A stretch of DNA of 64,000 nucleotides from Naegleria gruberi (lineage: Eukaryota), in the NCBI GenBank assembly GCA_000004985.1, contig GG738894.1; one strand, 5' to 3'. This document shows positions 15,512 to 63,424 of the stretch, piece after piece; within the stretch, counting starts at the first letter, position 1, and each line of letters begins with the position of its first letter. Made by a program: the position numbers and the translations under genes. Below the pieces are notes generated by a model that was given only the letters and a program-made list of their open reading frames with translations, had not been told where the DNA came from and ran no database searches.

Positions 15512-17092
15512 AATAATAATATAATACCAGCTTGAGTACCCAAAGTATTCAAAACAGTATCAACATCACCAGAATAAACAAGAATTCTAATTTGAGGAAG
15601 CAACTTGGTATAGAATGGCAACATGGTAGTATAGATGGTGGTGTAATTAATGAAGGTTGAACAAACTTGCCATCCATTTGGATTACCAATATGAGTAGCA
15701 CCAATGGCTGATCTAACAGCTGGAGTATTGAAATAGGAAATGACAGAGTGATCTGGAACACAAGGTGAATCACTTTCGTCACCAACAATAGAGAAACTAG
15801 ATCTTCTTGATGTAGCTCTGTGAGTGTGAAGTTGGAAGAGTGGATGATTCTTAGAGTTGATAGAACGCTTTGGCATGTTTAAACCGTTATCACCCAACCA
15901 TGTGCAGCTAAATATTTTGTTGACCAAAAGATGAGAAAATTCCAATAATAAATTCCAATAATAATTCCAACAATTCAATTTTCATGAATTTTCAAACATT
16001 TTCAATAACATTGTTCACGTTAATATTGATATCAAATTACTTGGATAACTTACGAGTCATAAATGTAATATGGATTCAAATGGGTCAAGGAAGCATAAAC
16101 TTTTGACAAGAATGCAGAACAATCAGCACTGTTTTGATTAGCATAAAAATTACCCTTGCAACTAACAAAACCAGCATTGTAATCTTCAATGGTAATCAAA
16201 CTGTGTTCCTTATAGAAGAGAGGAACAGAGTTGGCATCTTCTTCACCATCAGTAACACCATTACCAACCAAAATACCTGCATGAAATTATATTAGTATAA
16301 ATTGAAATCAGAAACATACCTTGCAAGTTAATCTTTGGTAATTCACCTTGTTGATTTCCTTGTAAAATTCTGTAAGCAGCAGATGGAACATAAACTCCAC
16401 CATATGATTCTCCAGAAATAAAGAATGGATTCTTGACATATTGTGGGAATCTAGAGAAGAAATCTCTCATGGCTCCATTCATATCATTGGCAGCAGTAAT
16501 ATCGGTGATAGACATATAATCAGCAGTATTGTCACTATAACTATAACCCTATTTAGTTGTTTAAATCATGAACAAACTCTCTATGTAACAAAAACTTACA
16601 ACACCAATTGGTTGTTCCAAATAAATAATGTTAACTCTCTTATTCCAAGCAAATGGATTGCTAACAACAGTTTTACCATCAGCTAACACAACAAAAGGTC
16701 CATGTTCCGATACCATTCCGTCTATTGTTGAAATAGTCATTAGATGACATTGTTAAAACTTTAAATTTTCACAATTTTCACAAAATACTAACCAATTGAA
16801 GAGCAACCTGGGCCACCATTTGTCCACAAAACCCTATTCATTGTCAAAAGGATGATAATACTGAAACAACTTACACTGGTGCTGTAGCTGGATTTTCTTG
16901 ACATTCCATGAACCAATAAAACAAATGGTGTTGAGTAGAATTTCCATTCAAATAGCCAGTGTAACTCTTGAATGTTATTGGTTGATTATAACCAGGCAAG
17001 GAAGTAACAAGATGATCCCTCGAGGTTTGTCCCATAACAACCTGAGCATGCAAGAACATCAACAGAGCAAGGCTTCCGAAGACGAGTAACAA
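15508..17092 (-). CDS. Serine carboxypeptidase, peptidase family S10; at least 6 exons
   Basis: Signal peptide plus LPGY...SYTGYL...HLFYWFMECQENPATAPV (exon 1, 17092-16875). The next exons give [23 protein letters not shown]...NIIYLEQPIGVGYSYSD...GESYGGVYVP (catalytic Ser), then KINLQGILVGNGVTD, then ...RILVYSGDVDTV (catalytic Asp). Introns are 41-150 nt, GTAAGT/GTTAGT/GTATGT...AG. The expected C-terminal His region was not found (see findings). Confidence 0.85.
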
Positions 17093-17363: not shown

Positions 17364-17603
17364 TCATTGTAGGGTGATATTTAAGAGGTCACAGCAATCA
17401 CAATAGCAACGCTTTTCTCTTGTGTATGGGACAATCATTTGGTTGTCGAGTTGCTTATCGTTATCCTTAGAAGATTGAAGAAGCATCAGAATTTGTTTAA
17501 TCCATTCTTCTTGTTTCCTATCTCTTTCTTCTTGTTTTCTATCACGTTCATCTTGCTTTCTATCCCTTTCTTCTTGTTTCTTTTCAAGCTTATTAACTTT
17601 CAA
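17364..17603 (-). CDS. Small ORF with KQEERDR tandem repeats (doubtful gene)
   Basis: 79-aa ORF built on 4 copies of a roughly 24-nt repeat encoding ERDRKQEE. It could be a small charged protein or non-coding. Confidence 0.2.
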   Translation of the reverse strand: MKVNKLEKKQEERDRKQDERDRKQEERDRKQEEWIKQILMLLQSSKDNDKQLDNQMIVPYTREKRCYCDCCDLLNITLQ

Positions 17604-18006: not shown

Positions 18007-18993
18007 TTATAAAAGAGAGCAATACCAATTTTTAATCTCCTCTTCATTTGCATCCTTTTCGAAAAAACTATTGAAGGTAAATTGTAATTGAATGAACCAC
18101 ACTGGTACATAAATATGTTTGAAATTCTTACAGTCAATCTCCACAAATACTGAGCGTCTATATTCATACGCTTTCTGTACAGCATCTTTCAAGCATACTG
18201 GTTTTCTTTCGTAGTGAGAATAATTCTTTTCTGAATGTAATCCTAAAACTATTCCTGTATCAGTATTATTAGATTGTAAACCCGCTAAGAACCATTCATC
18301 TAATTTGTTGAATGTCGATTCATGATCCATTGAAAATGCAAATAAACATTTCACATCATATTCTTGATGCCATTTATCTTCAATCATTTCACTCTTGGAG
18401 TAGAATCTTTCAACTCCATTTGTCTCCCAAATCTGATGCTTACAACGATTCTCCTCATTGGGAATTGTACATATTTTTGAAAAGTAATAAGGCCCAATAC
18501 CAACATTTTCCCTAAATTTTCCATGTTGAATAAAAGTTCCCAAAGTTGATTTTCCAATACCACTATCTCCTAAAATCATATAATTAATTGTTTGATCTTT
18601 GTGAGCTATTTCAAAATTAGGAAAAAATAATCGATAGAAATTCAACAATTCCAACTCGTTAGGATTGAGAATTTGTGAAATTTCTTCTGTATTTCTTTCC
18701 GGATCATGATTTCCCAATTTAAAAGCCAATTTTAACAAGTGTAATCGTATGAAATATTTTGCATTTCCAATTAATTTTACATGATCACTATTCGAATTTT
18801 CCGCGTTTTGATAAATTGAAATATTTAAATCTGATTTCTCGCCATTACAAAATTTACAAATATCATCACTAATAACAATGCAGGAATTTCTAATCAAGTT
18901 GTGAATATTCCGATTAACAGTGAGGAGAGAAGTTAAAACATCAATCGGTTCTAAAAATTGAATAATCTCCAACCAAGCAAGATCTTGCGCCAT
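18007..18993 (-). CDS. F-box-like N-terminus plus divergent Rab-like small GTPase domain (probable pseudo-GTPase)
   Basis: N-terminus is LAWLEIIQFLEPIDVLTSLL. The C-terminal half follows the Rab layout: P-loop ILGDSGIGKSTL, switch II IWETNGVERF in place of WDTAGQE, no NKxD. It is a paralog of 62420-63424. Confidence 0.6.
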   Translation of the reverse strand: MAQDLAWLEIIQFLEPIDVLTSLLTVNRNIHNLIRNSCIVISDDICKFCNGEKSDLNISIYQNAENSNSDHVKLIGNAKYFIRLHLLKLAFKLGNHDPERNTEEISQILNPNELELLNFYRLFFPNFEIAHKDQTINYMILGDSGIGKSTLGTFIQHGKFRENVGIGPYYFSKICTIPNEENRCKHQIWETNGVERFYSKSEMIEDKWHQEYDVKCLFAFSMDHESTFNKLDEWFLAGLQSNNTDTGIVLGLHSEKNYSHYERKPVCLKDAVQKAYEYRRSVFVEIDCKNFKHIYVPVWFIQLQFTFNSFFEKDANEEEIKNWYCSLL

Positions 18994-19660: not shown

Positions 19661-22600
19661 ATGAAACGGGTTGGAATTTCCCAGAGGAAGATCCATCATT
19701 TGATTTTAATTTTGATTTTCCTTGTCTTGTTTGTGATTAATAATTATGAATTATTAATTAATAATCATAATGCTGATTTGGGATCATCACCAGAGGCAGT
19801 GTTCATGGGAGGTCTTGTTAATGGTGCTTCTTATCGATTTTTAGGTGAATTAACCAATTCAACCAAAACAAATGTTTCTGCAGTCTATGTAGATGCACAA
19901 TCAGGTCAATCATTCACTAATTATACTGTATCGACTTCAACTTCAACGATTGGTTTTGGATCATTTTCATATACCTATGAAAGTGATGAATTTTCATGGC
20001 AAATTGTGATGGACAATGAATTGCCTTCATTTACCAATACGAGTAGTAGTATTTCATTGAGATATTATCGATTGGTACATAAGAATATATTGCTGACTGA
20101 TTTATCAAAGAATTTATTTATTAGTGTGGAGAATATTTCGACAGTGTTGACTCCTCTCAATCTGTTGAATGGATCTAATGGATTGGATATTAGTGTGAAT
20201 GGAATGCTTATTAGATTGAATGGAACAACTAAGGGAAAGTACTCCAATTCATCAAAATTGGTGGATATTCCTGAATTGTTTACATCTTCCTATTCATTAC
20301 AATTGTTTTCAATTCAATTGAATACATCAAAATTACAAGATAATAGTACCTATCCTGCAGTGGTAGATCCATCGAAAATTTTGGTCAATTACACTCAACT
20401 CAAAGGAAAGAATCCAACATATTCCTACCAGGTTCTCGAATCAGTGAAGGAATATATCAAGGTTCTTTCAGTAACCACTGTTTCATTGAAGAATTTGTGC
20501 AGTTCTTCCTCTCCTATTGTGGCCTTTACGTGGGGCTCTTGGAAATTGTGGTTCGTTTTGGCCATTGTCATTCTAATGTTGCTCATGCTTGTGGCTTCAT
20601 GGTGGAGGCCATACTTTATTGTTTTCATGACTTTGGTCATTTTGAATCTTTCAGGAATAATTAACCTTACACAAACTCTGAGTGGTTTCTCTAATGATGG
20701 TATGCTGACAGTCTTGCTGCTCTTCCCTATTGTCCAACCATTATCGGAGAATTCATTAGTATTGAGAGGATCCAAGTTAGTATTTGGTACAGCCAAGTAT
20801 GGTTTATGGTTGTGTATGCTTAGATTATGTTTGGTTATTTCAGTAATTAGTCCTTTCATTAATAATACTCCAATTGTCGTTACAGCCCTTCCAATTATTG
20901 TAAGTTTATTATGAATATTTCTCTTATTTTGTTTCTTCTATAATATTTTAATATTTATTTCATTAAAATAGAAAGATTGGGCCAGAGAAAATAACATTGC
21001 TGCCTCCAAATTCTTAATGGCCATGTGTTATATTACAACAGCTGCAGGCTTAATGACCTTGATTGGTACCAGTACAAACATTGTGACCAATGGTCTATTT
21101 ACTGCCTACGGTTATGAGGCTTTCACATTCTACGAATTTTTCTACATTGGATCAATTTTGACATTTATTACAATCATTTATTTGTGTACATATGGATTGT
21201 GGGTCTCTCCAAATAGAAAAGGTGGTATGTTTAGATTGGCCAGAGAAAGAGGTGAACAATTCTTGACAAAACTTGCAGTCGAAAGAAGGAATTCACCTTT
21301 AATTGGTAAGAACAAGACCAAAGTTATTACTTATTTGGGATTGGACAAGTTGGAAGTTGTTGAAATTATCAGAAAAAAGACCAAACAAGCACCAGCCGCC
21401 ACACCATCCAATGACCGATCGAATACTGATTCACCAACTAGGGTGGAGGTGACCACAATTATGAGTTCAAACGATGATGACAATTTGGAACATATTGTGC
21501 CAGTTCCTGACGATTTGACCATTCAACTCTATGATACCATCATTTTCAAAGGTCATCCAACCAATATTTTAAAACTCCACTCCATGGTTGGTGTTTCACA
21601 AAATATTGAACAAGATCCAAAGGAAGAATCCAACATTTTGCACACCATGTTGGGAACTGAAAATTTACAAATCGATACCAATGTAAATAATGCAAACAAT
21701 ACAGAAAAGAAGAGTCCACTTTCTCCAAGAAAGCCATCAACTGCTGAAGAGAATGATCAAGAAGTTGTTGTGGAAATTAGTGATAGTGAGGCTGCTTCTA
21801 CCAATGATTTGATTATTGGTGAGACAAATTCTACAGAGGATCAATTTTCCTCTGCACCACCAATTCCAAAAACCTCATTGAAAAATAAGATTAAGGAACA
21901 AAATCTTCATGAAATGGTTCTCAAAAAGTCAGTTGAAGAAGAAGAAAAGAGAAAGTCTTCTGTTGAAGAAGAGACTGAAATGGAGGAAATACAAATTCCA
22001 AATGATGTGGAAATTCCATCAAACCCTACTGATTCAGAAAAAAGAATAGACACAATTGACAATACAGAAAATAAGACAGTCGACACTACAACTGAAAGTA
22101 AAAAGAAGGAGGATGCCTCTGAAGCAGAATCTGAGAATGAACCAGAATTTTTCGAAGTGGTCATTAGTACCTTCAACCCATGCATGGGTGAATTATACTC
22201 TGATTTTGAAAAGAGATATGGAGTTGTCATTCTTGCAGTTCGTCACAATAAGGGTCTCGAAACTAAAACAGATATCACTGATTTCAAGACTACAAAGGTT
22301 AAAGCAGGAGATACTTTATTACTTATTGGAAAGGCTGATTTCTATTCCAAGTGGCATGAACTAAGGATTTCTATGTCATTTCCAGATGTAATGTTTCACC
22401 AAAGGAGAAGAGCAAACATCAAAAATTTATTGTCAAGATTCCATTCACAAAGAAATCAGTCAACTTGTGGTGGTGGGAACACTTGATTTTCCCATTCTTT
22501 ATTGCAATGATTGCTGTTGCCATTGCTGGATATTCAATGCTTCAATGTGCTATGGTTACTTTGTGTGTTGTAATTATTTTCAGATTAATCAATCCAATTA

Positions 22601-27971: not shown

Positions 27972-30900
27972 TTAATGCTTGTCACTGGATTTTACCGAAA
28001 GTACAGAAGGACGGGTTGAAGATTTGACAGAGAGTGGAGAGTTTCTGGTATTATTTACATTGTTTGAACTGTTTGTGACTGAGAGCTGTTGTTGGGATTG
28101 TTTGATAGGAGTTGTGTTGACCTGTCTTCCAGTTGTTGTTGATGAGCTTGAACCAGTTGCTGTTGTATTGGATGTGCTTGGAGTACTGGAATACTTTTGA
28201 GAGGTAGTCACAACTTTTCCACTATTAACATTTGTATTGACCTTATTCGTTGCTGTTGGTTGATTAGCAGTTGTAGAACTTGTTGTTGTGGACGTAAGCT
28301 TTGGAACTGTATTGGTTGCAGTTGATTTGTTGGCAGTCTGAGTTGTTGGTTTGACTTCGACTGGTGTGGAGGTAAGTTTTGGAACTGTATTGGTTGCAGT
28401 TGGTTTGTTGGCAGTCTGAGTTGTTGGTTTTACCTCCACTGGTAGTGGTAAAATTTCATTATCTTTCAGAACTGTCTTGGCAGAGGTTGAGGTGAGAATT
28501 TGAGGTTCTTCTCTATTACCACACAATCTATTCTTTCTGCATTTTCCTTTGGCATTGGCACTGATTTCGATACCCCTCTTCTCACTGGTGAAAAGTTTGT
28601 TGAGCATGACGAGAGGGTCCGCATCCGATCCAATATATACATTCGATCCGCTATTGCTAAAAACCTTATTATTTACAATATTTCCGAGTCCTTCCTTTCC
28701 AATCTTGATACCTTCAGCCATGCTATTGTGAATTTGATTATTTTCAATTGTTGGATTTCCACCATCCTTTATAAAAATGTTTGCTTCCAAACTTCCAAAA
28801 ATGTCATTATCAGCAATAGTGCCATGAGCACCTGAATGTATTTGAATTCCAACATGAGGAGAGTCACGAATAGTATTACCAGTAATGGTTGGATCTGCCT
28901 TTTCACAAATTTCCAAAGAAACTCCCTTAAAGGTACACTTTTCGATGGATGCATCACATTTTGATCCCTTCAATTTAACAGTACAATGTGGGAGTTTTCC
29001 AGTTGTTTTGGTATTTGGTTTGTACTCTGAATTGTAAACTATCAAATTTCTAATTTTCGAATATCTGACATTGTCAAAGAGAATGACATCCTCAACATCT
29101 TTTGGTTTGTAAAGAATGGCATGTGATTTTCCTTCCGAAATTCCCTTCAAAAAGACACTTCTGTCAATGAGAATTTGTTCCTTATAAACTCCAGGTCGAA
29201 TATTAATAATTGGTGTTGTGAGTGGTCTGGTTGGTTTGATGATTTTTCTTCCGTCTGATGGCCTCACAATGAAAGGCAAGTTGAATTTTTGCATTAAAAG
29301 TCTCTGCTTATCAACAAGTGAAATGTCAAGATTGGAGAGTGGATTACTCTTGACTGGATTGTTTGTTCCCAACATGACTCCTCCACTCGATCCACAATCT
29401 TCATACTCTCCAATATCTCCCAAATTACCAGTTCTAAAACTACTGGCCTTCTTTAGCGAGCCCGAGTCTGAGAAGGCATTCTTCATGGAACTGGCTGAAA
29501 AGGTTTTTGTCAATGAATGAGATGGTAGTGGCCTCTTTGGTATAATTTTCGTAATATCCATTGGAAGAGCATTGATAGCTGTTTGAATGGATGTATAGTC
29601 TCCCTTTCCATTAATATCTACTGTATATTCGAGTGAGTTTTGGAGAGGAATACTTCTCAATTCGGTCAATATTTGAGAGAAGGTTGGACGTTCGTCTGGA
29701 TCCTGTAAACAACAAGTCGAAACCAATCTAACAAAGCAATCAATAATTGGTGATTCTTGTGCCAATTTTTCAGCATTTTCAATCTTTGGTCTTTGTCCCA
29801 TAATTACCTGTGAAGCTACAGTGAATGGATTTTGAACATCGTGAAATGGAATTAAGTGAGTAATCAACTCGTACATGACCATTCCGAAACTGTAAACGTC
29901 AGCTTTTTCTCCTGAAGATGCTGCAGAACTGAACATTTCCTGTTTTTCAAGTTTCGAATATAATAAGTAAAGTAGTAATATTTGATAATAATTTGTTGCA
30001 TAATTTGAATAATAAATTGATATTAAAAGTCAATGCAAAAATACTTACTGGAGCCATCCATCCAGATGTACCTTTCATACCAGATACTCCTGAATTTCTA
30101 TTTCTCACAGAAGACAATCCAAAATCTGAAATTTTCGAAATCAAATTCTTATCCAACAACACGTTATGACTCTTCAAATCTCTGTGAATGATTGGTTTTG
30201 GTCTCGAGTGCAAATGATGCATTCCTTCGGCAATATCAATGGCAATTTGTAATTTCATTTCATTGCTGAGAATTGGTTGTGATTGGAGGAATTTCTTGTA
30301 CTTGTCTGCTTGTTCATCCTCATCATCCATTGGAGATTCGACAATGGTGAGTCCAGTTCCGAGAAGTTTCTTTGTGGTTGGTGTGATCACTTGTCTATTG
30401 TTTTGTTGATTTGAAGGAGGTTTTAATTTGCCATTCTGTGATGATTCATTGGTTGGTGAGAGTTGAGAAGAGTTTTGTTTCTTGGATTTCATCAGAGGTT
30501 CATAGTCATACTCTGGAAAGGTTGTTTCTAATACTTTATGAAGAGAGAAGGGCAGAAATTCCTATTTTTCAATATTACATTATATATTAATTATATATTA
30601 GAATATTAATATGATGTTGTGTGTTGTTGTTATTAATATTATTCCGAATGATGTTTTCCAATTAATTAAATTAAACATTATAATAACAATTAAATTGTTG
30701 GAAGAAGTTAAACACAAATATAATGGAGAGAAGAGTCATAAGAAGAAGAAGAAATTACACTTAGAAAAGAGAGAAATAATTAAACAACTCACCATAACAA
30801 TATAAACACACTGACTATCATCGGACCAACCAAAAACATTCAAAATATTGGAATGTTGTACTCGTAACATGATGGCAATTTCATTCAAAGTCTCCTTCCA

Positions 30901-36008: not shown

Positions 36009-39000
36009 TCAAATAATGGAGTTTATTTCTTCAGTCTTGACGATTGCTCCCACATGATACTTATTGTCCAATAAATAAGTCTGAAGAATTCCCTTTCCTT
36101 TTACTGCGATACTACGCTCCTCAAATGTGAATTCTAAATCAAAAACTCTTTCATATGTTTTTCTTGACAGTTGAATTCTTCCAGGTAAACTAGTGCTTTC
36201 CATCCTACTTGCTGTAGTTATGGAAAGAAAATAAGAAAATCATTAAATAATTATTACCACACTTCAAACTTACCTGTGTTGATATTGTCTCCCCAAAGAT
36301 CGTATGCAAACTTCTTCTTTCCAATCACTCCAGCTGTTACACTTCCTGTGTGTATACCTATTCTAATATTTATCTGTTTTTCAACAGGCTTTCTTGAAGT
36401 AATGTTGTAGTTACGAATAACATTGAAACAATCAATGGAAAATCTAAGAATTCTCTCTGGATGATTAATGTCAACATTGTTTAACCCTGCACAACAAAAG
36501 TAAGAATCACCAATGGTTTTGATTTTTTCCACATTATATTTGTCAGTCAAACCATCAAATCCATCAACCACACAATTCAGTAATTGCACTAACTCTGTAT
36601 GTGTTAATTGTGAGGTCAATGCAGTGAATTCAACCATATCACTAAAGAAACAGGTGACATCTGGGTGTTTCTCCGCAATAAGAGATGCTCCAGCCAAAAG
36701 TTGACGAGCTACAGAGCTAGGTAGAATATTAAGAAGCATATTTTCCGATTTCTTCTTTTCTTCGTTTAGTAATAAAATTGCCTTCTTCTCTAAGGTGGAT
36801 TCTTTGATGAAAAATAATGTAATGTGTTTGTTTTCAAAGAATGTTACATAGATATTGACTGTTGCAGGGAAAGTCTTTTGATTTTTTCTGACACACTCAA
36901 GTTCAAAAGTTTCTCCTTTAGGGCAGGTTTTTGTTACTTGTTTTTTGATGGATTCGACTTCGTTCTTAACCAAAGTTTGGTGTTCTCTTGTGAATATTTT
37001 AATAGGTTTACCAATAACATCTTCGAGTTGATAACCAAACATTCTTTGAGCTGAAGGATTGAAAATATCCACTAGCATTGTATCATTACATGTAATTACA
37101 CCATCAACAAATGTGTTAAGAATTGTCACTAGTTTTGCATCTCGCTCTGACGTGACACCATTGTTGGTAAATAATTTGGATGGGTTTTCATTAGGTAGTG
37201 TTTTAAATAATGCAAAGTTTTTAAGTTTCTCGTTGAACACCAAAGTATCTATCGATAGGTAATCGAACATGATTCTCATTTGTTGTTCTGCATTAGCATA
37301 TTCACGGAAAATGTAATACATCGAACAAATCGAGCAAGTGACAAGTACAAAGCCAATTACAAAACTCGCTATCACATAATTAATATTTGGTACAGAGGCA
37401 TCAACAGCGAAAATATTTGCAAAATCAATCAATTTCATCGATGACAAGTTAAAAAGAAATAAAATCTTAAGTAAGGAAGTAATATGTTCCTTGATAGTCA
37501 CTGGTTGAAATAAAATTGTCTGGGCCAATAAATTTTGTTTCAACAATATTTGTGTTGATAATAATATATGTGTTAGCATTGTATCTATTCCAATGCCACA
37601 AGTGCTGTTAAAATGAGTGTCAGTTTCTGGAATGGTACAATTTGGATCGCCCTTAATCAAGTGGTCTGTACCGGGAAACATGCCTGCAACTACTGATTCA
37701 AAGGGTTTTGTAGTTGATCCGAATAAACACCAATCCCAATTCCTTTGAAGATTTGCTGCCTCTTGATAATATTGAAGAGTCATATTTAAAGCTTCATCCT
37801 CTGTTATCAATGGTATATCGTCAACATTTCTATAATAAGCATATAGTTCAGTACTGTAAAATGCTACATTTTGCAGATGCTTGGTAGTTTCAAATACGTC
37901 TTGTACATTTACAAAGGATTCAACCGAATAATGGGTATTGTCAAACAAGCCACATACGAATACTGCCGTACACACTCCAACTGTTAAAAATATTACTATT
38001 ATCAAAATGGGGAAACATATCTTATGTTTGAGAGGATCTACTTTTCCTGCATGAGTAATCACTTCTTGTGGTTGTTGTTCGCATAATGTGTGGTATATTT
38101 CACCAACTTCTGGTTTAGAGACACACTCTTTCAGTAGCTTGACATGATTTTTCAATCTAGAGAAAGTGAATCTTGAATATATCAAATATAATACACACAC
38201 TATTAACAAGCAAGGTAACACGGCTGCTGTGTAAATGATTAAAACATTCCTCGAATTCAATGCCTCATCTATATGAACTTGTGTGTAAGAATGACAAAAT
38301 AAAGAATATGCCTGTGTAAGGGTATTTTGATTTCTATAAAGAAACATGAACATAAAGGATGTGTAGGTTTGTAGTAAAGCTTCACTTGTTTCTGACAAGA
38401 AGCGATTTGCCAATAGTTTTAAAATCTTATTGATTTGAGAGAGTGGGTACTTGTTTGACTCAGTCAGGTTATATAAACCTCCTCCTGGTATTACAGTTGG
38501 AATTACTAATGAATAGTGGAAATCAGTAAATTGAGAGTAGATTTGAGGTGAAAACTTTGAGGCAAAAGCAACGTTTTCTAAATTGACTATCGATTGTGTG
38601 AAATATTCGACATGCTGTTTGTATTTATCCATGTCAAAATAAATATCATTCGTCCAATTATGTTCGATGGTGATATTTGATTGCATCCAGTGGTCAATAA
38701 TCTGATACCCTCTTCCTGAAAGTAATAAGTTAGTGACACAGGGTATTGTGGCACATGCCTCCTTAGAATGTAGCAAATTGCTTGTTGCTTGATTGGAATA
38801 AATCAGTGACAGCAAGAATGGAGTGATGAGAGCAACCAAGAACAGTATGCAAAAGCCAACAAATAGTATGATAAAAACAGTTCGGCGTGTTGGAGTTGCA
38901 AGAGCATTGCTATAAATCATCTTTCTTGTTTGTGGATCCAGTGTTTCAAATTCTTCTAACGTTTGCTCCTCATTTTCTCTCCCATCAGTGGTAATTTCAG

Positions 39001-42000
39001 ACACAGAAGATTCACCTTCAGCTTTTTTAGTGGATCTGTTGCATTCATTTTCTTCGAGTAAGTTTGCTTTGTTAAAATTCTCATTTGATAATTCTGGATT
39101 TGCTTTAAATGATACCAAATATTGTGCATATATTCTTAGTGCTGTTTTGTCTTGACTATAAAAAGGAACAAGGTTGTTAAATATACAGTCACACTCGGCA
39201 ACTAGCTTGGAGCTTCTAAAAATGACTCTTTCAATTTTTTCCATAATAATACTTTCTTTCAGAAACTCTTTCCAAAAATCCTTATGAAGAGCATAAAGTT
39301 CTTCGGTTTTTCTCCGAATTTTAGACAGTATTAATACCAGTTCTGACTTGGAATCATCTTCACAAAGATACGCCTCAATTTCCTTCTTCTTTTGGCACAA
39401 TGAATACGAAGAAACAAAATTTGCATACTTTGGTGTCATATTTTTTGTTAAAATTGAAAAAGCCAATGTACGTTCACCCTTCGTTTGATATGCCATTATT
39501 GATGCTGATACTAAGGGCAACCTCATACTGCTGTTTAAATCTTGTAAGGTTGCCTTGATAAATGCTATTATCCCTGAATGATACTTGCTTCGTTTAGGTC
39601 CTTTCATCATTTCAAACTTTAAAAAAAGACCCAATAGGTAAACAATTCTATCATCTTGGAGATTTAAGTTTTTTGAGACTGTATATGTTCCAGTGTCTGG
39701 TTCTTCTTTAAAAAACTTGTTCTTAAATTTATACATATTGTATCTTGTATAACATTCCATTGTCACACATCCAATTAAAGCCATCAATAGCATCAACCCC
39801 AGAGTAGCTGAAAACAATATTATTCCAAGAGTGTTATCGTTGGTCACATTGACAAAATATGTCACAAGACCAGATACACTTGTGGCCAGTCTACAGAAAA
39901 TGATACCACTAATAACAGTATTTTCAAATCTTCTTAGCATTGGTATTGTTTGAAAAACAAGTATTATCAATAGTAGAGTCGAAATTATGTGTACAATAGA
40001 TCTTAAATATGCCGTGTACGGAGGAATTAGATGATGAATGACAATCCCAACAACATTGCACAACGGAATAGTGGCCTGAAAGATAATATTGTCATTTAGC
40101 ATTGGGGAGTTGCTTAATGGATGAGAATTTGGTAGAATCAATATTGATAGACCAAGTACAATTATAAAAACAACTATTGAAAGCAATGATAATATCATCA
40201 GAGGAATGTTGATAGAATCGAAACAAGGGGAACCTGGGAATCGATTCAACACCATTCCATTAGGTGCCCGACTAAATGGAATAACTACAGCAAGTGGTTC
40301 AGGTTGCGTCAAGCCATAACTGCAGTCTACAAAGGAAGTTAACACGTATGTGACAGGTGCCGAGATCAATAAACAAGTGTAACATAGAATATGTACCACT
40401 TTTTTCAGGAGCTTCCTCCTGCTACTTACTCTTTTCACAGCAGTATTAGCCAAAATAAAACAGCACACAATTGCCACAATAGTGATCATAAAAAATACAG
40501 CAAGACCAAGGTTAGCATAATATGGAAATGTCCATGATGCAAGAGTTATTGGAAAGTTCAAAACTTTGATGATCCAACTAGCCCATACTCCAAATCTGAA
40601 AGACACTGGATTTAGTAACGGTATCCATACAAAACACCAAAACAATACAAGCTGTACGATGAGTTGCTTAAGAAACTCAATGGTTCCTTTTCTAATTTTG
40701 TTTGCCTGCATTGCAAACAAGAAGATAAAAAACTCATTCGCTATGGCAGACCCAAACTCTGATGATAGAGTAGAGCTCTGGCAAGTAATAGATGTAGAAA
40801 ATCCGTTTTGTTTTTTTTCATCCTTGTTTGTGTCCTTAGTTTTGTTTGGTTTCTCAATACTGATGGCTCCATTATGCTGAAGTCTTATATAGCCTTGCAT
40901 TTCGATTTCAAACTTTGCATTGTCTAATTCAACTTCTTGTCTCAAATCATTTGGTATGAGATTATTATCCACATTGTTAATATTCAACTTTGGGTCTCTT
41001 CTGCTGTACATGAGCATGTAAGCATTTGTGGAATCGCCAATAATCTCATCATTTCCATACATGGATTCTATTTGAGATTTATCAATTTCATCAATATAAT
41101 TATCATTAAATTTAAACCATTTCCCTGAATGGAACGATCTTATTAACACAAAGTAATGCTTTAAAAAAGGTCACTAAAAAGCTAGCTATTTTACATACCC
41201 CTGTAAGTGCATCTCCAGAATGAATGATAACACTATAAAGATCAAATAAATGTTGCTGATCATCTACATATTTTGACATGTCCAACACAAAGGGAAAGGT
41301 AACTTTGTTTCCAAGCTAATACTACAATTACATTAATATGAACAAGTTCATACTTACCTTGACAGGAGTATTTGTTTGATAATCAACCCTCTTGAGTTGA
41401 AGTGTTAAAATGTAGGGAAGATGAGCCAATTTTAAATTCTTGACCGCATCTATTTTCTTATTTCCAAGCTCCTCACAACACCATTGATTATCTCCCTTCA
41501 TTTCCTCAGATTTTAAAAAACTTTCAATGGCCTCCTCGACACTGGACACATCCCGAATAGCCAATTGCAAATCCATAAAACTGTCCACTTTGGTGGTTTG
41601 ATATACTTCACCACTTTGTTTCTTCTCATCCACAGACTCGATATGATCTATTACAGTGCCACAAAACAGGTCGCTGAAGGATACATTGCTATCGTTATTG
41701 TAATTTTTTTGTGGTGGTGATGAATCAGTTTCTTTAGAATGGGATCCGTCAGTCAGCACGTCGAACAAGATCCTAAACACTTCATGAATATCGTGTTGAA
41801 CTTTTAAATCTGATGCTTGCCAGCCTAAGCATAGAAAAATTTTCGCACACGAATCAATCATATTATGTGTTGATAATGAAATCTAAGGACAATCGAAAAC
41901 TTACCAAATGAATTTGTTAACTGTGTGGTGTCCACTGAGTTTCTCTTTGATAAAGTCAAATAGGCAAACAAGCGTTGCAATTGATAAGGGACGCAATGGT

Positions 42001-47303: not shown

Positions 47304-49998
47304 ATGTCCTCATCGAATAACAATAGCAAAACAATACGTTTCTTTTCGGATACCAATTCGAATACACTTATCAGAAACTCACCATCCAACAATACAAACT
47401 TAAAGGACAACTCTAATCCCATCCTCTCCATCACCACCACCACAACTCCCAACAACAACAAATCCACCACTCAATCTCCTCACCATTTAGACTTTCAACT
47501 TTCTCCAAGTACTTTACAAAACACTCGCAAATTCTCCCTCAACAAGGATATATTAATTTCCATGATCAATAATTCATCTACATCTGCTACATCTCCATCC
47601 TCTTCATCTATAAATTCTCCTTCATCATCTTCATCATCATCACAACAATTAAATAATAATTTTTCATCATCAAATAATTTATTCAATTCCGTTGATCCGG
47701 ATTCGAGGAGGCGGAGTAGTGGCGGAGAAAATATTAATATCGGTAGTGGTAATGGTAGTGGTAATAATAATGCGAGTGTTAATAGTTTGGGAGGTGCAGG
47801 GAATAATTCAGTTCTCTTTTTGAATTTGGACGAAAGATTGGCCATGCAAACACAGAATGAATTGAATTCTTCGAGACCGATCAATCATCAGAGGAATAGA
47901 CATAAGGGATCTGGTGGTATTTCTGAATATTCATTTACGGTGGATGATTTGATATTGCCAAATAGTGATATATCATCACCTAGATTGGCAATTTCAAGTA
48001 ATTTAAATTCGAATATTGTTTCTTCTAATGTTTCGAATGCGAAGAGTCCAACTCCTCATTCAAAATCAAATTCAACGACTACAGCTACCTTTGTACCATA
48101 TATTTCTCCTTTAAATACTTCGAATAGTTTGGAAAGTAATGAATTGGGAACTACAGAATTTGTCAATTTGGATCTCACTTCAATTTTACCTCATGGAAAA
48201 TTATTGAGATTCTTCCTTGTGAATAATCAGGACTATTTCACAGACACTGTCCAATTGAGAAAACACAGCCCCGTCATTGCTCAGGAAATTGATTTCCAGC
48301 AACGATTGAATGAATTTGAAAATCAAAACACTGGATTCTTTTCAGATATTTCCATTAGATTTGTACCGAGTGGAAGAGAGATTCGTGCCCATAAATTCAT
48401 TCTCTCCATGTATAGTCCCGTGTTGGCTACACTGTTTAGTTCGAGATGGAAGGAAACTCATGATAATGTCATTGAGGTTTTGACTGAAGTTAGTAATCAG
48501 AGTGGTGGTGGTGTAAATTTTGAGGAGGTTGACGATGAGCAATTATTTGTGGAAATGATTCTCTGCATGTATAGTGGTCAGATTTATCAAGTGGAGCAAC
48601 ATTTAATTGTTCCATTGTTGGAGTTATCTGACAAGTATCAATTTACAGAATTGTCGAGAGCTTGTGAGGAGTATTTGAGAGTTCACTTGAATGAACACAA
48701 TTGCATTTCATTGCTCTATCTTGCCAATGGAATTTCCATTGAGAATACTCTTCAATCCTCTGCAAATACGAGACTTTCCATTTCATCAACAACTGGAAGC
48801 AAGTATTCAAAGGGAAAGTTTGATCGATTGAAAGAGAGAGCACTCGCCTACATTGATACACATTTCGAGTTGGTTTCCAAGACCAAGGCATTCCTCTTTT
48901 TAGATGTTAACATGTTGATTTTCCTCCTTAATCGTGGTGAGCTCAGAGTTGATTCTGAGGATGTCATTCTCAGTGCCATTTTAAATTGGTGTGATGGTGA
49001 TCTGTGCAATAGGAGAGAACTCTTATTCTCAACTCTATTGGAACATGTTCGATTGTACCACCTCTCTCCCAATCGATTGGCTCATTTGGGTGAAGTATTG
49101 GAAAGGTACACTGGAACATTGGAGAATTCCTCTCTCATGATGCCATGGATGAATAGAATCATGCAAGCCATGTCCTATCAAATGTCTCACACTCTCGGTT
49201 TCCAACTCTCTCAGAGTATGCAACAGAAAATTGCACTCGAATGTCCTCCAAGAAAGAGAGCTACTCAAGATATTACAAGAATTTCAAATTTATTATCACA
49301 GGAGCAATTTTTACAAATTGCAGAGTGGATTAATGAGCAAGGAAAGCAAGGATTGATGAAGGATGTTTCTGAAAGGTTTGTTTCCATTTTCCCACTCTAA
49401 TTGATTAATTTTCTAATAATTTTTTGTAAATATATACTTCACACATTTTACAAATATTTCACACAAATACAATCTCAAACTAATCAGAGAATGGCTACTT
49501 CTCTACAGAGGAACAAGGGATGGTTTTCAAGGTAAAGCTTTCCATGCCAAATGTGATGGAAAAGGTCCAACTTTTTGTGTCATTAAAACAGATAAGGGAT
49601 TTCTATTTGGAGGATTCACATCCAAGAGTTGGCACAGTAACAACACTGATGAGAGTGACGAATGTGCATTTTTATATTCTCTCTACAATCCCTATCTGAA
49701 CAACAAAATGACAAGATTTAAAATCAAACCTGGAATGTCAGCTGCCATTGGATGTTATGCAAACTTTGGAGTAATTTTTGGTGGAGGAAGAGATTTAATT
49801 CTCTATTCTGAAAGTAATATTAACAATTCGAGTCATTGTGAATTCTTTGGCCACACTTATCAATTACCAAATTTAGCAGGAGTTTGCTATGGATCTCTGA
49901 AGAGTAAAACCTTCTTCAATGGAACTGAACAGTTTAGAGTGAATGATTGTGAAGTTTTTGGATTAGTTCCATCCTCAAATAAATTCCTTACCAAGTAA
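47304..49998 (+). CDS. BTB/POZ-BACK protein with a C-terminal TLDc domain; two exons (47304-49375, 49488-49998)
   Basis: S/N-rich N-terminus. BTB is SDISIRFVPSGREIRAHKFILSMYSPVLATLFSS...; the BACK-like region is ...LIFLLNRGELRVDSEDVILSAILNWC.... A 112-nt intron (GTTTGT...AATCAG, phase 2) joins ...KDVSE-R-EWLLLYRGTRDGFQGKAFHAKCDGKGPTFCVIKTDKGFLFGGFTSKSW...FGGGRDLILYSES...EVFGLVPS, a classic TLDc signature. Confidence 0.7.
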
Positions 49999-62120: not shown

Positions 62121-62419
62121 CTTGAATTATTATCGCTCTCTATTTCAATTAATAATAAAACAATTGATCGTTGTTCTCTCCTTTTTTTTATGTTGAAAAT
62201 ATGAACTTTTTTGAGTGTTCTTTAAATAGGTTTTAAAGTTATCTAAAAACAAATTGATGACGCAAATTCAAACACTCTCAACGGATACCATGACGTACTT
62301 GCCACTTCAATAGTAAAAACAGATTTAACCTATTCCATTCAAATGATTTGTTTTTGAATAAGGTTGTTTTTTGGAGGAGGTTTTATGAATTGGAATTTTT
62401 TTTGTAATACTTATAAAAA

Positions 62420-63424
62420 ATGCATCAAGATGTTTGGAGGGAAGTTTTTCAATTTTTGGAACCGATTGATTTGGTGAGTTCAATGTTGGCTATTGTAGAA
62501 GAATCAATTGTTACGTTTGAGAGTATTGCTTTGGGAGATTGTAGAGTTTCATTCCGATATATTGATCACAATGATGATTGGTCAGAAAATCAATTAAATT
62601 CTGAATATTGTTTGGATTATGTTAGAATATTGGGAAATGTAAATTATATTGTTAATTTATATTTATTAAAATTGGGAATTAAATTGGGAAATTTTGATAG
62701 TCAATCGAATGTTGAATCGATACTTGATAGTTATCAATTTAGTTTATTGGAATTTTATAGAAAAAGTTTACTTCAAGTTGAATTTCCACCATTTGAACCA
62801 ACTACACCAGATAAAGCATATGTATTGAAATATGTTACAATTGGAGATAGGTCAATTGGAAAGAAAACTTTACAAATGTATTTGAGGGATGGAAAATTTG
62901 ATCCTCACCCACCAATTGGAGTTGATTTCTGTATCAAGAGGTGTGCTCTAAAAGGAGGACCAAATATTAAACATCAAATATGGAATGCTTCAGATATGAG
63001 ACAAGAATCAAAGCCAGAACTTATTCAAAAACTTAGTCGATATGGATTTTCATTCCTCTTTTGCTTCTCAATGGAAAATGAGGAAACCTTCAAAGTGATG
63101 GAACAGTGGATTGAACCTCTTAGGAACCTTGATATTTCAAAAAGATTGGGTTTAATCATTGGCTTTCATCCATTCATTAAGAACGAAACAAAACAACACT
63201 TGACTCGATTGGAAGCTGTGAAAAAATCTTGGCAATTTGAAAAATCATTATTTCTCGAAATTGACACTGCCAAGAACCAGAATATATATGCTCTTGTTTG
63301 GTTCCTTCAGATAAAGTATACATACTTTAAACCTCCTTCGACAATGTATTATGTAGCACCTGAAAATATTACAAAGCAACAAGAAGAAGAGCCTGTTAAA
63401 AAGTCATTCTGTATTATACAATAA
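62420..63424 (+). CDS. F-box-like N-terminus plus degenerate Rab-like domain (pseudo-GTPase), paralog of 18007-18993
   Basis: MHQDVWREVFQFLEPIDLVSSMLAI versus MAQDLAWLEIIQFLEPIDVLTSLLTV, colinear throughout. P-loop VTIGDRSIGKKTL; switch II IWNASDMRQ (no DxxGQ); no NKxD. Confidence 0.6.
   Translation: MHQDVWREVFQFLEPIDLVSSMLAIVEESIVTFESIALGDCRVSFRYIDHNDDWSENQLNSEYCLDYVRILGNVNYIVNLYLLKLGIKLGNFDSQSNVESILDSYQFSLLEFYRKSLLQVEFPPFEPTTPDKAYVLKYVTIGDRSIGKKTLQMYLRDGKFDPHPPIGVDFCIKRCALKGGPNIKHQIWNASDMRQESKPELIQKLSRYGFSFLFCFSMENEETFKVMEQWIEPLRNLDISKRLGLIIGFHPFIKNETKQHLTRLEAVKKSWQFEKSLFLEIDTAKNQNIYALVWFLQIKYTYFKPPSTMYYVAPENITKQQEEEPVKKSFCIIQ

What the first reader, a model, noticed from the sequence alone, without database searches (positions are those of the whole stretch)
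18007..18993. Family of F-box-like plus Rab-like pseudo-GTPase proteins (two paralogs in the window)
ORFs 18007-18993 (minus strand) and 62420-63424 (plus strand) are colinear paralogs. Each starts with an F-box-like helix (W.E..QFLEPID...L) and ends in a domain that follows the Rab/Ras layout. The domain has the P-loop (GDSGIGKST / GDRSIGKKT), a switch I Thr region and beta-strand spacing. Switch II DxxGQ is replaced by ETNGVE / NASDMR and the NKxD guanine-specificity motif is absent. That predicts nucleotide-binding-defective or non-hydrolysing pseudo-GTPases tethered to an SCF-type adaptor motif. The combination suggests substrate receptors or decoys in small-GTPase pathways.
Basis: partly seen in the sequence, partly recalled or inferred. 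Interest (0 to 1): 0.6.

Follow-up and report, generated by a model that had tools for sequence, protein, structure and literature searches.

The report
Naegleria F-box-like, prenylated Rab pseudo-GTPases
The two genes are real paralogs from the amoeba Naegleria gruberi, each with a degenerate F-box-like head, a Rab-fold domain that has lost most GTP-binding motifs, and a lipid-anchor tail, but the family, including these two genes, was already catalogued in a 2021 Naegleria genome paper and has never been tested experimentally.

Summary

All family members lack the switch I Thr, NKxD and SAK. DxxGQ is lost in both window genes, and the second also has a broken P-loop (GKK).

The N-terminus is F-box-like. 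It scores below the Pfam cut-off in both genes (15-17 and 12 bits against 20.5). A N. lovaniensis homolog passes (23.0). A profile comparison with verified F-boxes gives 75% probability, E 2e-5, and beats all 200 shuffles. The Leu-Pro motif is missing, and the second gene also lacks most of helix 3.

Herman et al. 2021 (BMC Biol, supplement) already describe this Naegleria-specific Rab-like subgroup, with its N-terminal extension (an F-box in some members) and CaaX motif, and list both accessions. The only increments here are the pseudo-GTPase reading and F-box evidence for this subgroup.

The likeliest function, which is inferred, is a membrane-anchored SCF adaptor with a nucleotide-independent Rab-like binding module.

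The parts
18007..18993 (-). Gene 1: complete intronless ORF, 328 aa plus stop. It is N. gruberi XP_002672932.1 (NAEGRDRAFT_71933).
18883..18987 (-). Gene 1, F-box-like three-helix head (aa 3-37). The Leu-Pro motif is replaced by Met1-Ala2.
   Evidence: Pfam F-box scores 15.3 bits on the whole protein and 17.0 bits on the N-terminus alone, against a cut-off of 20.5; residues 6-39 match profile positions 8-40. hhalign to verified F-boxes gives prob 75.5%, E 2.4e-5, with 0 of 200 shuffles as good. AF2 predicts helices 3-13, 16-23 and 28-37.
18592..18882 (-). Gene 1, family-specific linker region (aa 38-134). It carries the conserved GN.KYFIRLYLLKL..KLGN helix and the LLNFYR motif and has no Pfam or PDB match.
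   Evidence: conservation 0.71 and 0.90 among 8 N. gruberi members
18058..18591 (-). Gene 1, Rab-like G domain (aa 135-312). G1 is intact (GDSGIGKS). G2 Thr is replaced by Gly. G3 reads WETNGVE. G4 NKxD is replaced by GLHSEK. G5 SAK is replaced by IDCK.
18010..18021 (-). Gene 1, C-terminal CaaX box CSLL. The final Leu fits geranylgeranylation by GGTase-I (general knowledge).
   Evidence: Herman et al. 2021 supplement
62420..63424 (+). Gene 2: complete intronless ORF, 334 aa plus stop. It is N. gruberi XP_002672868.1 (NAEGRDRAFT_71949).
62423..62503 (+). Gene 2, truncated F-box-like head (aa 2-28). An 8-residue deletion removes most of helix 3.
   Evidence: Pfam F-box scores 12.2 bits; only residues 3-22 match profile positions 6-25. 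The gap is visible in alignment A1.
62504..62821 (+). Gene 2, family-specific linker region (aa 29-134).
62822..63334 (+). Gene 2, Rab-like G domain (aa 135-305). G1 is broken (GDRSIGKK). G2 Thr is replaced by Pro, although IGVDF is kept. G3 reads WNASDMR. G4 is replaced by GFHP. G5 is replaced by IDTA.
   Evidence: Pfam Ras 42.4 bits; motif table
63410..63421 (+). Gene 2, C-terminal CaaX box CIIQ. The final Gln fits farnesylation (general knowledge).

Best explanation
Both genes belong to a small subgroup of Rab-derived proteins found almost only in Naegleria. Nine N. gruberi loci are listed by Herman et al. 2021. Each protein has three parts:
1. A divergent, N-terminally truncated F-box, followed by a conserved helical linker.
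2. A Rab-fold domain.
3. A C-terminal CaaX box.

Shown. The Rab fold is retained. Every member has lost the guanine-recognition motifs G4 and G5 and the switch I Thr. Most members, including both window genes, have also lost the switch II DxxGQ. Within the subgroup the N-terminal module is more conserved than the nucleotide-binding motifs.

Inferred. The G domain no longer works as a GTP/GDP switch. Gene 1 could at most bind phosphate or nucleotide weakly through its intact P-loop, and gene 2 probably binds none. The domain would then act as a constitutive protein-binding module. Prenylation of the CaaX Cys would anchor the protein on a membrane. The F-box-like head would dock Skp1-Cul1. The protein would thus be a membrane-resident SCF substrate receptor, analogous to the prenylated F-box proteins FBXL2 and FBXO10, that ubiquitinates whatever the Rab-like surface binds.

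My confidence in the architecture and the pseudo-GTPase status is about 0.8. My confidence in the SCF-receptor mechanism is about 0.35. The overall figure given reflects the mechanism.
For: Paralogy: E 3e-48.

Motif loss: the table covers 11 relatives. G4, G5 and the G2 Thr are absent in all of them. G3 is intact only in P0002, and DxxG survives in XP_002681067.

F-box: sub-threshold Pfam F-box hits recur. The N. lovaniensis homolog P0006 was found with the N-terminal profile at E 8.9e-12 and passes the Pfam F-box cut-off at 23.0 against 20.5. hhalign against 8 F-boxes that each pass Pfam gives prob 75.5%, E 2.4e-5, with 30 columns in register. The score of 26.8 compares with shuffles of mean 9.0 and maximum 17.5, so 0 of 200 reach it. 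Three helices are predicted at residues 3-37.

CaaX: present in 7 of 8 full-length N. gruberi members.

Conservation: F-box-like segment 0.78, linker helix 0.71 and LLNFYR 0.90, against 0.41-0.42 at G2, G3 and G4.

Literature: Herman et al. 2021 describe three Naegleria-specific Rab-like subgroups with an N-terminal extension (an F-box in some members), one of them with CaaX, and they propose GTPase-dependent ubiquitination. Prenylated F-box proteins exist (FBXL2 and FBXO10). A class i pseudoGTPase is known to act as a protein-binding module (AAGAB, PMC12490416).
Against: Both window proteins fail the Pfam F-box cut-off. The Leu-Pro motif at the start of canonical F-boxes is absent in the whole subgroup, because the protein begins there. 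Gene 2 lacks most of helix 3. Profile searches of PDB sequences with the N-terminus found no F-box protein. The hhalign probability is only 75%.

The N-terminal part of the AF2 model has modest confidence (block means of pLDDT 51-85 over residues 1-130), and I could not superpose it on a solved F-box. No data here address Skp1 binding, nucleotide binding, prenylation, expression or partners.

Herman et al. report disrupted copies in these clades (birth-and-death evolution), so some members may be drifting. P0002 keeps G1 and G3, so the family is not uniformly dead.
Confidence: 0.4

Rival explanations
1. The F-box-like head does not recruit substrates. It controls the protein's own fate instead. 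Either it is a degron or Skp1 handle that makes the Rab-like protein short-lived, as proposed for TbFRP. Or it is a helical cap with the linker that packs on the G domain in place of nucleotide-dependent regulation. The protein would then act as a prenylated, constitutive Rab-like membrane scaffold.
For: The TbFRP authors suggest that its F-box is coupled to the protein's rapid proteolysis. A pTM of 0.78 for a two-module protein implies that the N-terminal module is predicted to pack rigidly against the G domain. The degenerate F-box, with no Leu-Pro and with helix 3 deleted in gene 2, fits a structural role better than Skp1 docking.
Against: The F-box-like segment is the best conserved part of the protein (0.78), which suggests a specific external partner. 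A rigid linker between the F-box and the substrate-binding domain is also typical of true SCF receptors (general knowledge).
Confidence: 0.25
2. The proteins are still nucleotide-regulated switches with altered specificity. The intact P-loop of gene 1 (and of P0002, P0004, P0007 and XP_002681067) would bind ATP, another NTP, or GTP with low affinity. This would give nucleotide-dependent control of an attached E3 adaptor, the 'GTPase-dependent ubiquitination' suggested by Herman et al.
For: GxxxxGK[ST] is kept in 6 of 11 relatives. P0002 keeps DTAGQE and XP_002681067 keeps DTSGEE. Herman et al. propose GTPase-dependent ubiquitination. Some atypical G domains show ATPase activity (noted in PMC12490416).
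Against: G4, G5 and the switch I Thr are lost in every member. Gene 2 also lacks the Mg-binding Ser/Thr and the DxxG motif. G2-G4 positions are the least conserved part of the domain.
Confidence: 0.2
3. The genes are fast-evolving, largely neutral products of the Naegleria Ras-superfamily expansion. They would be on the way to pseudogenisation, and neither the F-box remnant nor the G-domain remnant would have a specific function.
For: Herman et al. report members with disrupted coding sequence and birth-and-death dynamics. One family locus (ACER01000495) has lost the P-loop and switch II completely. The family is tiny and taxonomically narrow, with 9 hits among 1.84 billion representatives.
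Against: Both window ORFs are intact over about 330 codons despite only 34% identity. That implies long-term purifying selection on length, on N-terminal motifs, on new family-specific motifs (LLNFYR, CFSM, P.WF.QLQ.TYF) and on the C-terminal CaaX. Homologs exist in N. lovaniensis and in environmental sequences.
Confidence: 0.1

Closest known systems
Naegleria-specific divergent Rab-like subgroup with N-terminal extension and CaaX (Herman et al. 2021, BMC Biol 19:142, Supplementary Material 4 and Table S8)
   Same: This is the same family. XP_002672932.1 and XP_002672868.1 are both listed under 'Rab', next to XP_002669889, XP_002670133, XP_002673455, XP_002670760, XP_002673286, XP_002681067* and ACER01000495**. 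The paper already notes the conserved N-terminal extension (an F-box in some members), the CaaX motif, the lack of relatives outside Naegleria and the birth-and-death evolution.
   Different: In Table S8 none of this subgroup's members carries the 'F-box' flag. The F-box evidence for this subgroup is added here: the N. lovaniensis homolog above the Pfam threshold, plus hhalign with a shuffle control. The paper does not discuss the loss of G2-G5 or pseudo-GTPase status. It states that no functional prediction is possible.
TbFRP / FRP of Euglenozoa (FYVE - F-box - Rab-like GTPase; Exp Parasitol 2013, PMC3593210)
   Same: It is another Discoba protein that combines an F-box with a C-terminal Rab-like G domain. 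In the published alignment its F-box also lacks Leu-Pro, and its G domain also lacks NKxD (VCGLIPP where GNKxD is expected).
   Different: [quoted passage not shown] The family here starts directly at the F-box. I found no specific homology. hhalign of the two N-terminal regions gives prob 0.1%. The family G domain scores 103 against ordinary N. gruberi Rabs but only 51 against FRP. The FRP authors found no Naegleria orthologue. It is an analogue and has not been shown to be a relative.
Prenylated F-box proteins FBXL2 and FBXO10 (SCF receptors anchored by a geranylgeranylated CaaX)
   Same: They share the F-box plus C-terminal CaaX logic: an SCF substrate receptor confined to a membrane compartment (titles and abstracts).
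   Different: Their substrate-binding domains are LRR or other repeats, not a G domain. They have canonical F-boxes with demonstrated Skp1 binding. They are unrelated in sequence.
PseudoGTPases (e.g. the AAGAB N-terminal domain as class i; p190RhoGAP pG domains; CENP-M)
   Different: Those proteins are unrelated lineages of the superfamily. The proteins here are clearly Rab-derived (they retain IGVDF and KHQIW), and gene 1 keeps an intact P-loop. Nucleotide binding has not been measured.
Canonical Rab GTPases
   Same: Best sequence and structure matches. Remnants of the RabF motifs survive. The proteins are lipid-anchored at the C-terminus.
   Different: The switch I Thr, DxxGQ, NKxD and SAK are all missing. 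The tail is CaaX rather than the Rab-type CC/CxC. There is a 134-residue N-terminal extension.

Membership tests
F-box domain (Pfam PF00646 / PF12937) | Score at or above the Pfam gathering threshold | tested here: not met
   Gene 1 scores 15.3 bits (17.0 for the N-terminus alone) and gene 2 scores 12.2 bits, against a cut-off of 20.5. Only the N. lovaniensis homolog P0006 passes, at 23.0.
F-box domain (Pfam PF00646 / PF12937) | Profile-level similarity to bona fide F-boxes, in register and above chance | tested here: met
   hhalign of the 11-sequence N-terminal profile against 8 F-boxes that each pass Pfam gives prob 75.5%, E 2.4e-5, over 30 columns. None of 200 column shuffles reaches this score (maximum 17.5 against 26.8).
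F-box domain (Pfam PF00646 / PF12937) | Conserved Leu-Pro at the start of helix 1 | tested here: not met
   The proteins begin with Met1-x2 where Leu-Pro would align. The Pfam match starts at profile position 6-8.
F-box domain (Pfam PF00646 / PF12937) | Three-helix fold of about 40 residues | tested here: inconclusive
   For gene 1, AF2 predicts helices 3-13, 16-23 and 28-37 at pLDDT 51-78. No superposition on a solved F-box was possible. Gene 2 has an 8-residue deletion in helix 3.
F-box domain (Pfam PF00646 / PF12937) | Binds Skp1 | not testable with these tools
   This needs yeast two-hybrid, pull-down, or complex prediction with N. gruberi Skp1.
Rab/Ras small GTPase (Pfam PF00071) | Pfam Ras above threshold and a G-domain fold | tested here: met
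Rab/Ras small GTPase (Pfam PF00071) | G1 P-loop GxxxxGK[ST] | tested here: inconclusive
   Met in gene 1 (GDSGIGKS). Not met in gene 2 (GDRSIGKK).
Rab/Ras small GTPase (Pfam PF00071) | G2 switch I Thr | tested here: not met
   Gly in gene 1 and Pro in gene 2. The Thr is absent from that column in all 11 relatives.
Rab/Ras small GTPase (Pfam PF00071) | G3 DxxGQ (switch II, catalytic Gln) | tested here: not met
   ETNGVE in gene 1 and NASDMR in gene 2.
Rab/Ras small GTPase (Pfam PF00071) | G4 NKxD and G5 SAK (guanine recognition) | tested here: not met
   GLHSEK and GFHP replace GNKxD. IDCK and IDTA replace SAK. Both motifs are lost in every relative.
Rab/Ras small GTPase (Pfam PF00071) | Rab-type C-terminal CC/CxC geranylgeranylation motif | tested here: not met
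   The proteins have a single Cys in a CaaX box (CSLL, CIIQ), whereas canonical N. gruberi Rabs end in CGC or CNC.
Rab/Ras small GTPase (Pfam PF00071) | Binds and hydrolyses GTP | not testable with these tools
   This needs recombinant protein assays.
Naegleria-specific Rab-like subgroup with CaaX (Herman et al. 2021) | Listed by accession; conserved N-terminal extension; CaaX | tested here: met
   Both accessions are in Table S8. The N-terminal extension is conserved. CaaX is present in 7 of 8 full-length N. gruberi members.
PseudoGTPase | G-domain fold with loss of residues needed for nucleotide binding or catalysis | tested here: met
   Fold. Motif loss. This is a sequence-based prediction only.
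PseudoGTPase | Experimentally lacks GTP binding and/or hydrolysis | not testable with these tools
   No biochemical data are available.
FRP (FYVE-F-box-GTPase of Euglenozoa) | N-terminal FYVE domain | tested here: not met
   There is no FYVE hit in Pfam at E up to 10, and the protein starts at the F-box-like segment.
FRP (FYVE-F-box-GTPase of Euglenozoa) | Specific sequence relationship beyond generic Rab and F-box similarity | tested here: not met
   hhalign of N-terminus against FRP N-terminus gives prob 0.1%. The G domain scores 51 against FRP and 103 against canonical Rabs. The FRP sequences were transcribed from an OCR alignment.

The most novel reading that the evidence does not exclude
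The family could consist of membrane-anchored 'Rab-mimic' SCF receptors. The dead Rab-like surface would act as bait for proteins that normally grab Rabs: endogenous GAPs, GEFs or effectors, or Rab-targeting effectors of the intracellular bacteria and giant viruses that infect amoebae. The bait would deliver these proteins to ubiquitination. This would be a decoy-based, fast-evolving cell-autonomous defence or trafficking-control system. It fits the birth-and-death evolution and the 'organism-environment interface' guess of Herman et al., but nothing here tests it. A scan of viral contigs found no relatives.
Probability: 0.08. Interest if true: 0.75.

Novelty: already known. Interest (0 to 1): 0.3.

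Why it matters
Fusions of ubiquitin-ligase adaptor domains to small-GTPase domains are unusually common in Naegleria. F-box domains are fused to Rab, Rho, Ran and Galpha domains, and BTB domains to Ras and Arf (Herman et al. 2021). This hints at a mode of regulation that links G-domain surfaces to ubiquitination, and it is uncharacterised in any organism.

The subgroup seen here is the extreme case. The G domain has lost every base-recognition and switch residue, yet the proteins keep an intact reading frame, a conserved N-terminal module and a lipid anchor. That makes it a clean candidate for testing whether a Rab fold can be reused as a nucleotide-independent substrate-binding domain of an E3 ligase.

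As a discovery it adds little. The family and both genes are already catalogued. The contribution is a sharper, testable annotation: pseudo-GTPase status, F-box evidence and its limits, the CaaX box, and no link to TbFRP.

Tried and rejected
- **PDB sequence searches.** Profile searches with the N-terminal 134 or 50 residues found no F-box protein and nothing significant.
- **Other Naegleria subgroups.** hhalign of the N-terminal extension against the extensions of three members of the other Naegleria F-box-Rab-like subgroups was not significant (prob 0.2%). Homology of the whole extension across subgroups is therefore not shown.
- **Link to TbFRP.** FRP sequences were transcribed from the paper's supplementary alignment. 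The N-terminal comparison gave prob 0.1%. The G-domain similarity (score 51) is weaker than to ordinary Rabs (103). Rejected as a demonstrated relative.
- **First AlphaFold run.** With a 5-sequence alignment the model was unusable (pLDDT 42.9). Only the 10-sequence run was used.
- **Fold searches.** They return only G-domain hits because the model cannot be cropped. The afdb50 library was unavailable.
- **Wider homolog searches.** The word-index searches returned only N. gruberi paralogs. Scans of viral and metagenome contigs found no relatives.
- **Further copies in the window.** tblastn found none.
- **N. fowleri members.** They could not be retrieved from the held supplement text.

Full report
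**Source and observation**

The window is from Naegleria gruberi. The 328-aa ORF at 18007-18993 (minus strand) is 100% identical to the NCBI 'predicted protein' XP_002672932.1. The 334-aa ORF at 62420-63424 (plus strand) is XP_002672868.1. Both lie on the same 499,907-bp scaffold. The annotated models equal the ORFs, so both genes are intronless.

The two proteins are colinear paralogs: BLASTP gives 34% identity over 321 columns, E 3e-48. tblastn with five family members finds only these two copies in the window. They lie about 43 kb apart on opposite strands. At this level of divergence they are old duplicates and do not form a recent tandem pair.

**The G domain**

Pfam Ras (PF00071) matches both proteins well above its cut-off: 40.3 and 42.4 bits against 21.6, covering nearly the whole profile. 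phmmer against PDB sequences returns only Rabs (Rab5, Rab14, Rab2, Rab11 and others).

**Motif loss**

I aligned 11 relatives with three canonical N. gruberi Rabs taken from Table S8 of Herman et al..

| Motif | Gene 1 | Gene 2 | Rest of family |
|---|---|---|---|
| G1, GxxxxGK[ST] | intact (GDSGIGKS) | broken (GDRSIGKK; Lys replaces the Mg-binding Ser/Thr) | lost outright in P0003, ACER01000495 and both metagenome sequences |
| G2, switch I Thr | Gly | Pro | absent from its column in every member |
| G3, DTAGQE | WETNGVE | WNASDMR | kept only in P0002; XP_002681067 has DTSGEE |
| G4, GNKxD | GLHSEK | GFHP | replaced by G(L/F)H(P/S)-type sequence in all |
| G5, SAK | IDCK | IDTA | lost in all |

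Among the 8 N. gruberi members, the G2-G4 positions are the least conserved part of the domain (0.41-0.42 share the commonest residue). New family-specific motifs are better kept: the CFSM strand (0.68) and P.WF.QLQ.TYF in α5 (0.66). This is the sequence signature of a pseudo-GTPase. Whether any nucleotide still binds cannot be decided here.

**The N-terminus**

Pfam F-box is the only recurring hit on the first 134 residues. It is below threshold in both window proteins: 15.3 bits for gene 1 (17.0 for the N-terminus alone) and 12.2 for gene 2, against 20.5.

An exhaustive hmmsearch of 1.84 billion representative proteins with the N-terminal profile found only nine proteins at E <= 0.001:
- six from N. 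gruberi;
- one from N. lovaniensis (P0006, E 8.9e-12), which UniRef names 'F-box domain-containing protein';
- two from metagenomes.

P0006 passes the Pfam F-box cut-off (23.0 bits).

I verified that each passes the Pfam F-box and F-box-like thresholds. hhalign of the 11-sequence family N-terminus against them gives probability 75.5%, E 2.4e-5, with 30 columns in register from helix 1 into helix 3. The score of 26.8 exceeds all 200 column-shuffled controls (mean 9.0, sd 2.2, maximum 17.5) and the reversed control (7.4). AlphaFold predicts three helices at residues 3-13, 16-23 and 28-37.

Four points count against a fully functional F-box:
- The protein begins exactly where the conserved Leu-Pro should be, with Met1-x2 in its place.
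- Gene 2 has an 8-residue deletion that removes most of helix 3.
- PDB profile searches found no F-box protein.
- I could not superpose the model on a solved F-box.

The rest of the extension carries the helix GN.KYFIRLYLLKL..KLGN and the motif LLNFYR. It has no match to anything known, yet it is highly conserved (0.71 and 0.90). The pTM of 0.78 suggests that it packs rigidly against the G domain, as linker domains do in SCF receptors (inference).

**The C-terminus**

Seven of eight full-length N. gruberi members end this way (CSIY, CSLM, CSLQ, CLLQ, CGLM). P0004 ends in CFI. Canonical N. gruberi Rabs end in CGC or CNC. A single CaaX Cys predicts farnesylation or type-I geranylgeranylation and membrane attachment (general knowledge; also stated by Herman et al.).

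**Prior knowledge**

Herman et al. 2021 (BMC Biol 19:142, PMC8296547) re-annotated all Ras-superfamily genes of N. gruberi. [quoted passage not shown] One subgroup has a conserved CaaX motif. Some copies are disrupted, which the authors call birth-and-death evolution. [quoted passage not shown] They also note F-box fusions to Rho, Ran and Galpha domains, and they suggest GTPase-dependent ubiquitination.

Table S8 lists both window accessions under 'Rab', among the nine loci of this subgroup. None of the nine carries the 'F-box' flag, which is reserved for the other two subgroups.

The finding is therefore a rediscovery. Three things are added here: direct F-box evidence for this subgroup together with its limits, the systematic G-motif analysis that supports pseudo-GTPase status, and the conservation pattern.

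**Relation to TbFRP**

The closest published architecture outside Naegleria is the FYVE-F-box-GTPase FRP of Euglenozoa (PMC3593210). Its authors found no Naegleria orthologue. I transcribed ten FRP sequences from their supplementary alignment. FRP also lacks Leu-Pro in its F-box and NKxD in its G domain.

hhalign shows no specific link. The N-terminal regions give prob 0.1%. The family G domain scores 51 against FRP, 103 against ordinary N. gruberi Rabs and 88 against the other Naegleria subgroups. FRP is an analogue at best. hhalign of the N-terminal extension against three members of the other Naegleria subgroups was also not significant.

**Mechanism**

The best-supported reading is a prenylated, membrane-resident protein. 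Its degenerate F-box would dock Skp1-Cul1. Its Rab-derived pseudo-GTPase domain would serve as a nucleotide-independent binding surface for substrates. This is functionally parallel to the geranylgeranylated F-box proteins FBXL2 and FBXO10 and to pseudoGTPase binding modules such as AAGAB.

The fold, the motif losses, the CaaX box, the F-box-like similarity and the conservation pattern are shown. Skp1 docking, prenylation, loss of nucleotide binding and substrate recruitment are inferred.

There are three rivals:
- The F-box-like head controls the protein's own turnover or is purely structural.
- A residual nucleotide switch with altered specificity survives, at least in gene 1 and P0002.
- The genes are decaying neutrally. 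Against this, both ORFs are intact at 34% identity and keep their terminal motifs.

**Verdict**

The family is already in the literature, and the functional claim remains untested. Interest is modest, at 0.3.

Noticed in passing
window 36254-41149 (-) and 52528-57413 (+): There are two paralogous large multi-pass membrane proteins with TmcB-like TPR, PAS and adenylate/guanylate-cyclase domains. The second is split into two ORFs (52528-55374 and 55422-57413), presumably by an intron or a frameshift. BLASTP of these two ORFs to the first gene gives E 4e-25 and 7e-63.
   Followed up: partly
window 59874-62120 (-), next to gene 2: An NSF-type double-AAA ATPase (748 aa) is transcribed divergently from gene 2, with only about 300 bp (62121-62419) between the two start codons. 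A vesicle-fusion ATPase sits beside a Rab-like gene. This could reflect a shared promoter or be coincidence.
   Followed up: no
window 47304-49400 (+): This ORF encodes a BTB-BACK protein (698 aa), another cullin-adaptor-type gene in the same window.
   Followed up: no
window 27972-29936 (-), with 29947-30492 (-) upstream: The ORF starts in the C-lobe of a protein kinase domain and continues into a right-handed beta-helix (NosD-like) region. The kinase N-lobe is probably in the adjacent upstream ORF or exon.
   Followed up: no
window 16871-17092 (-) and 17364-17603 (-): Just downstream of gene 1 lie what look like serine-carboxypeptidase-like exon fragments (my reading of the translated sequence; no family search was run) and a short ORF with a KQ(D/E)ERDR repeat.
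   Followed up: no
window 19661-20914 (+) and 21017-22486 (+): Two adjacent ORFs probably form one transporter gene. The second ORF has CitMHS and TrkA-C domains, and the first had no Pfam match at E <= 1e-5. They are probably separated by an intron.
   Followed up: no
PMC3593210 supplementary alignment (not in the window): The published FRP 'GTPase' of trypanosomatids has no NKxD motif (VCGLIPP in its place), and its F-box lacks Leu-Pro. FRP may therefore also be a pseudo- or atypical GTPase. The parts of the paper I read (keyword passages and the supplement) do not mention this.
   Followed up: partly
Table S8 of PMC8296547 (N. gruberi Ras-family entries): Many N. gruberi Ras-class proteins in the table also start with an F-box-like 'LP.E(I/L)L..IL.F' segment, followed by a conserved helical extension and ending in CaaX. 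Only two Ras rows in the part I read carry a domain flag, and both are ANK repeats. The F-box-plus-G-domain-plus-CaaX design may be more widespread in Naegleria than the flags suggest.
   Followed up: no
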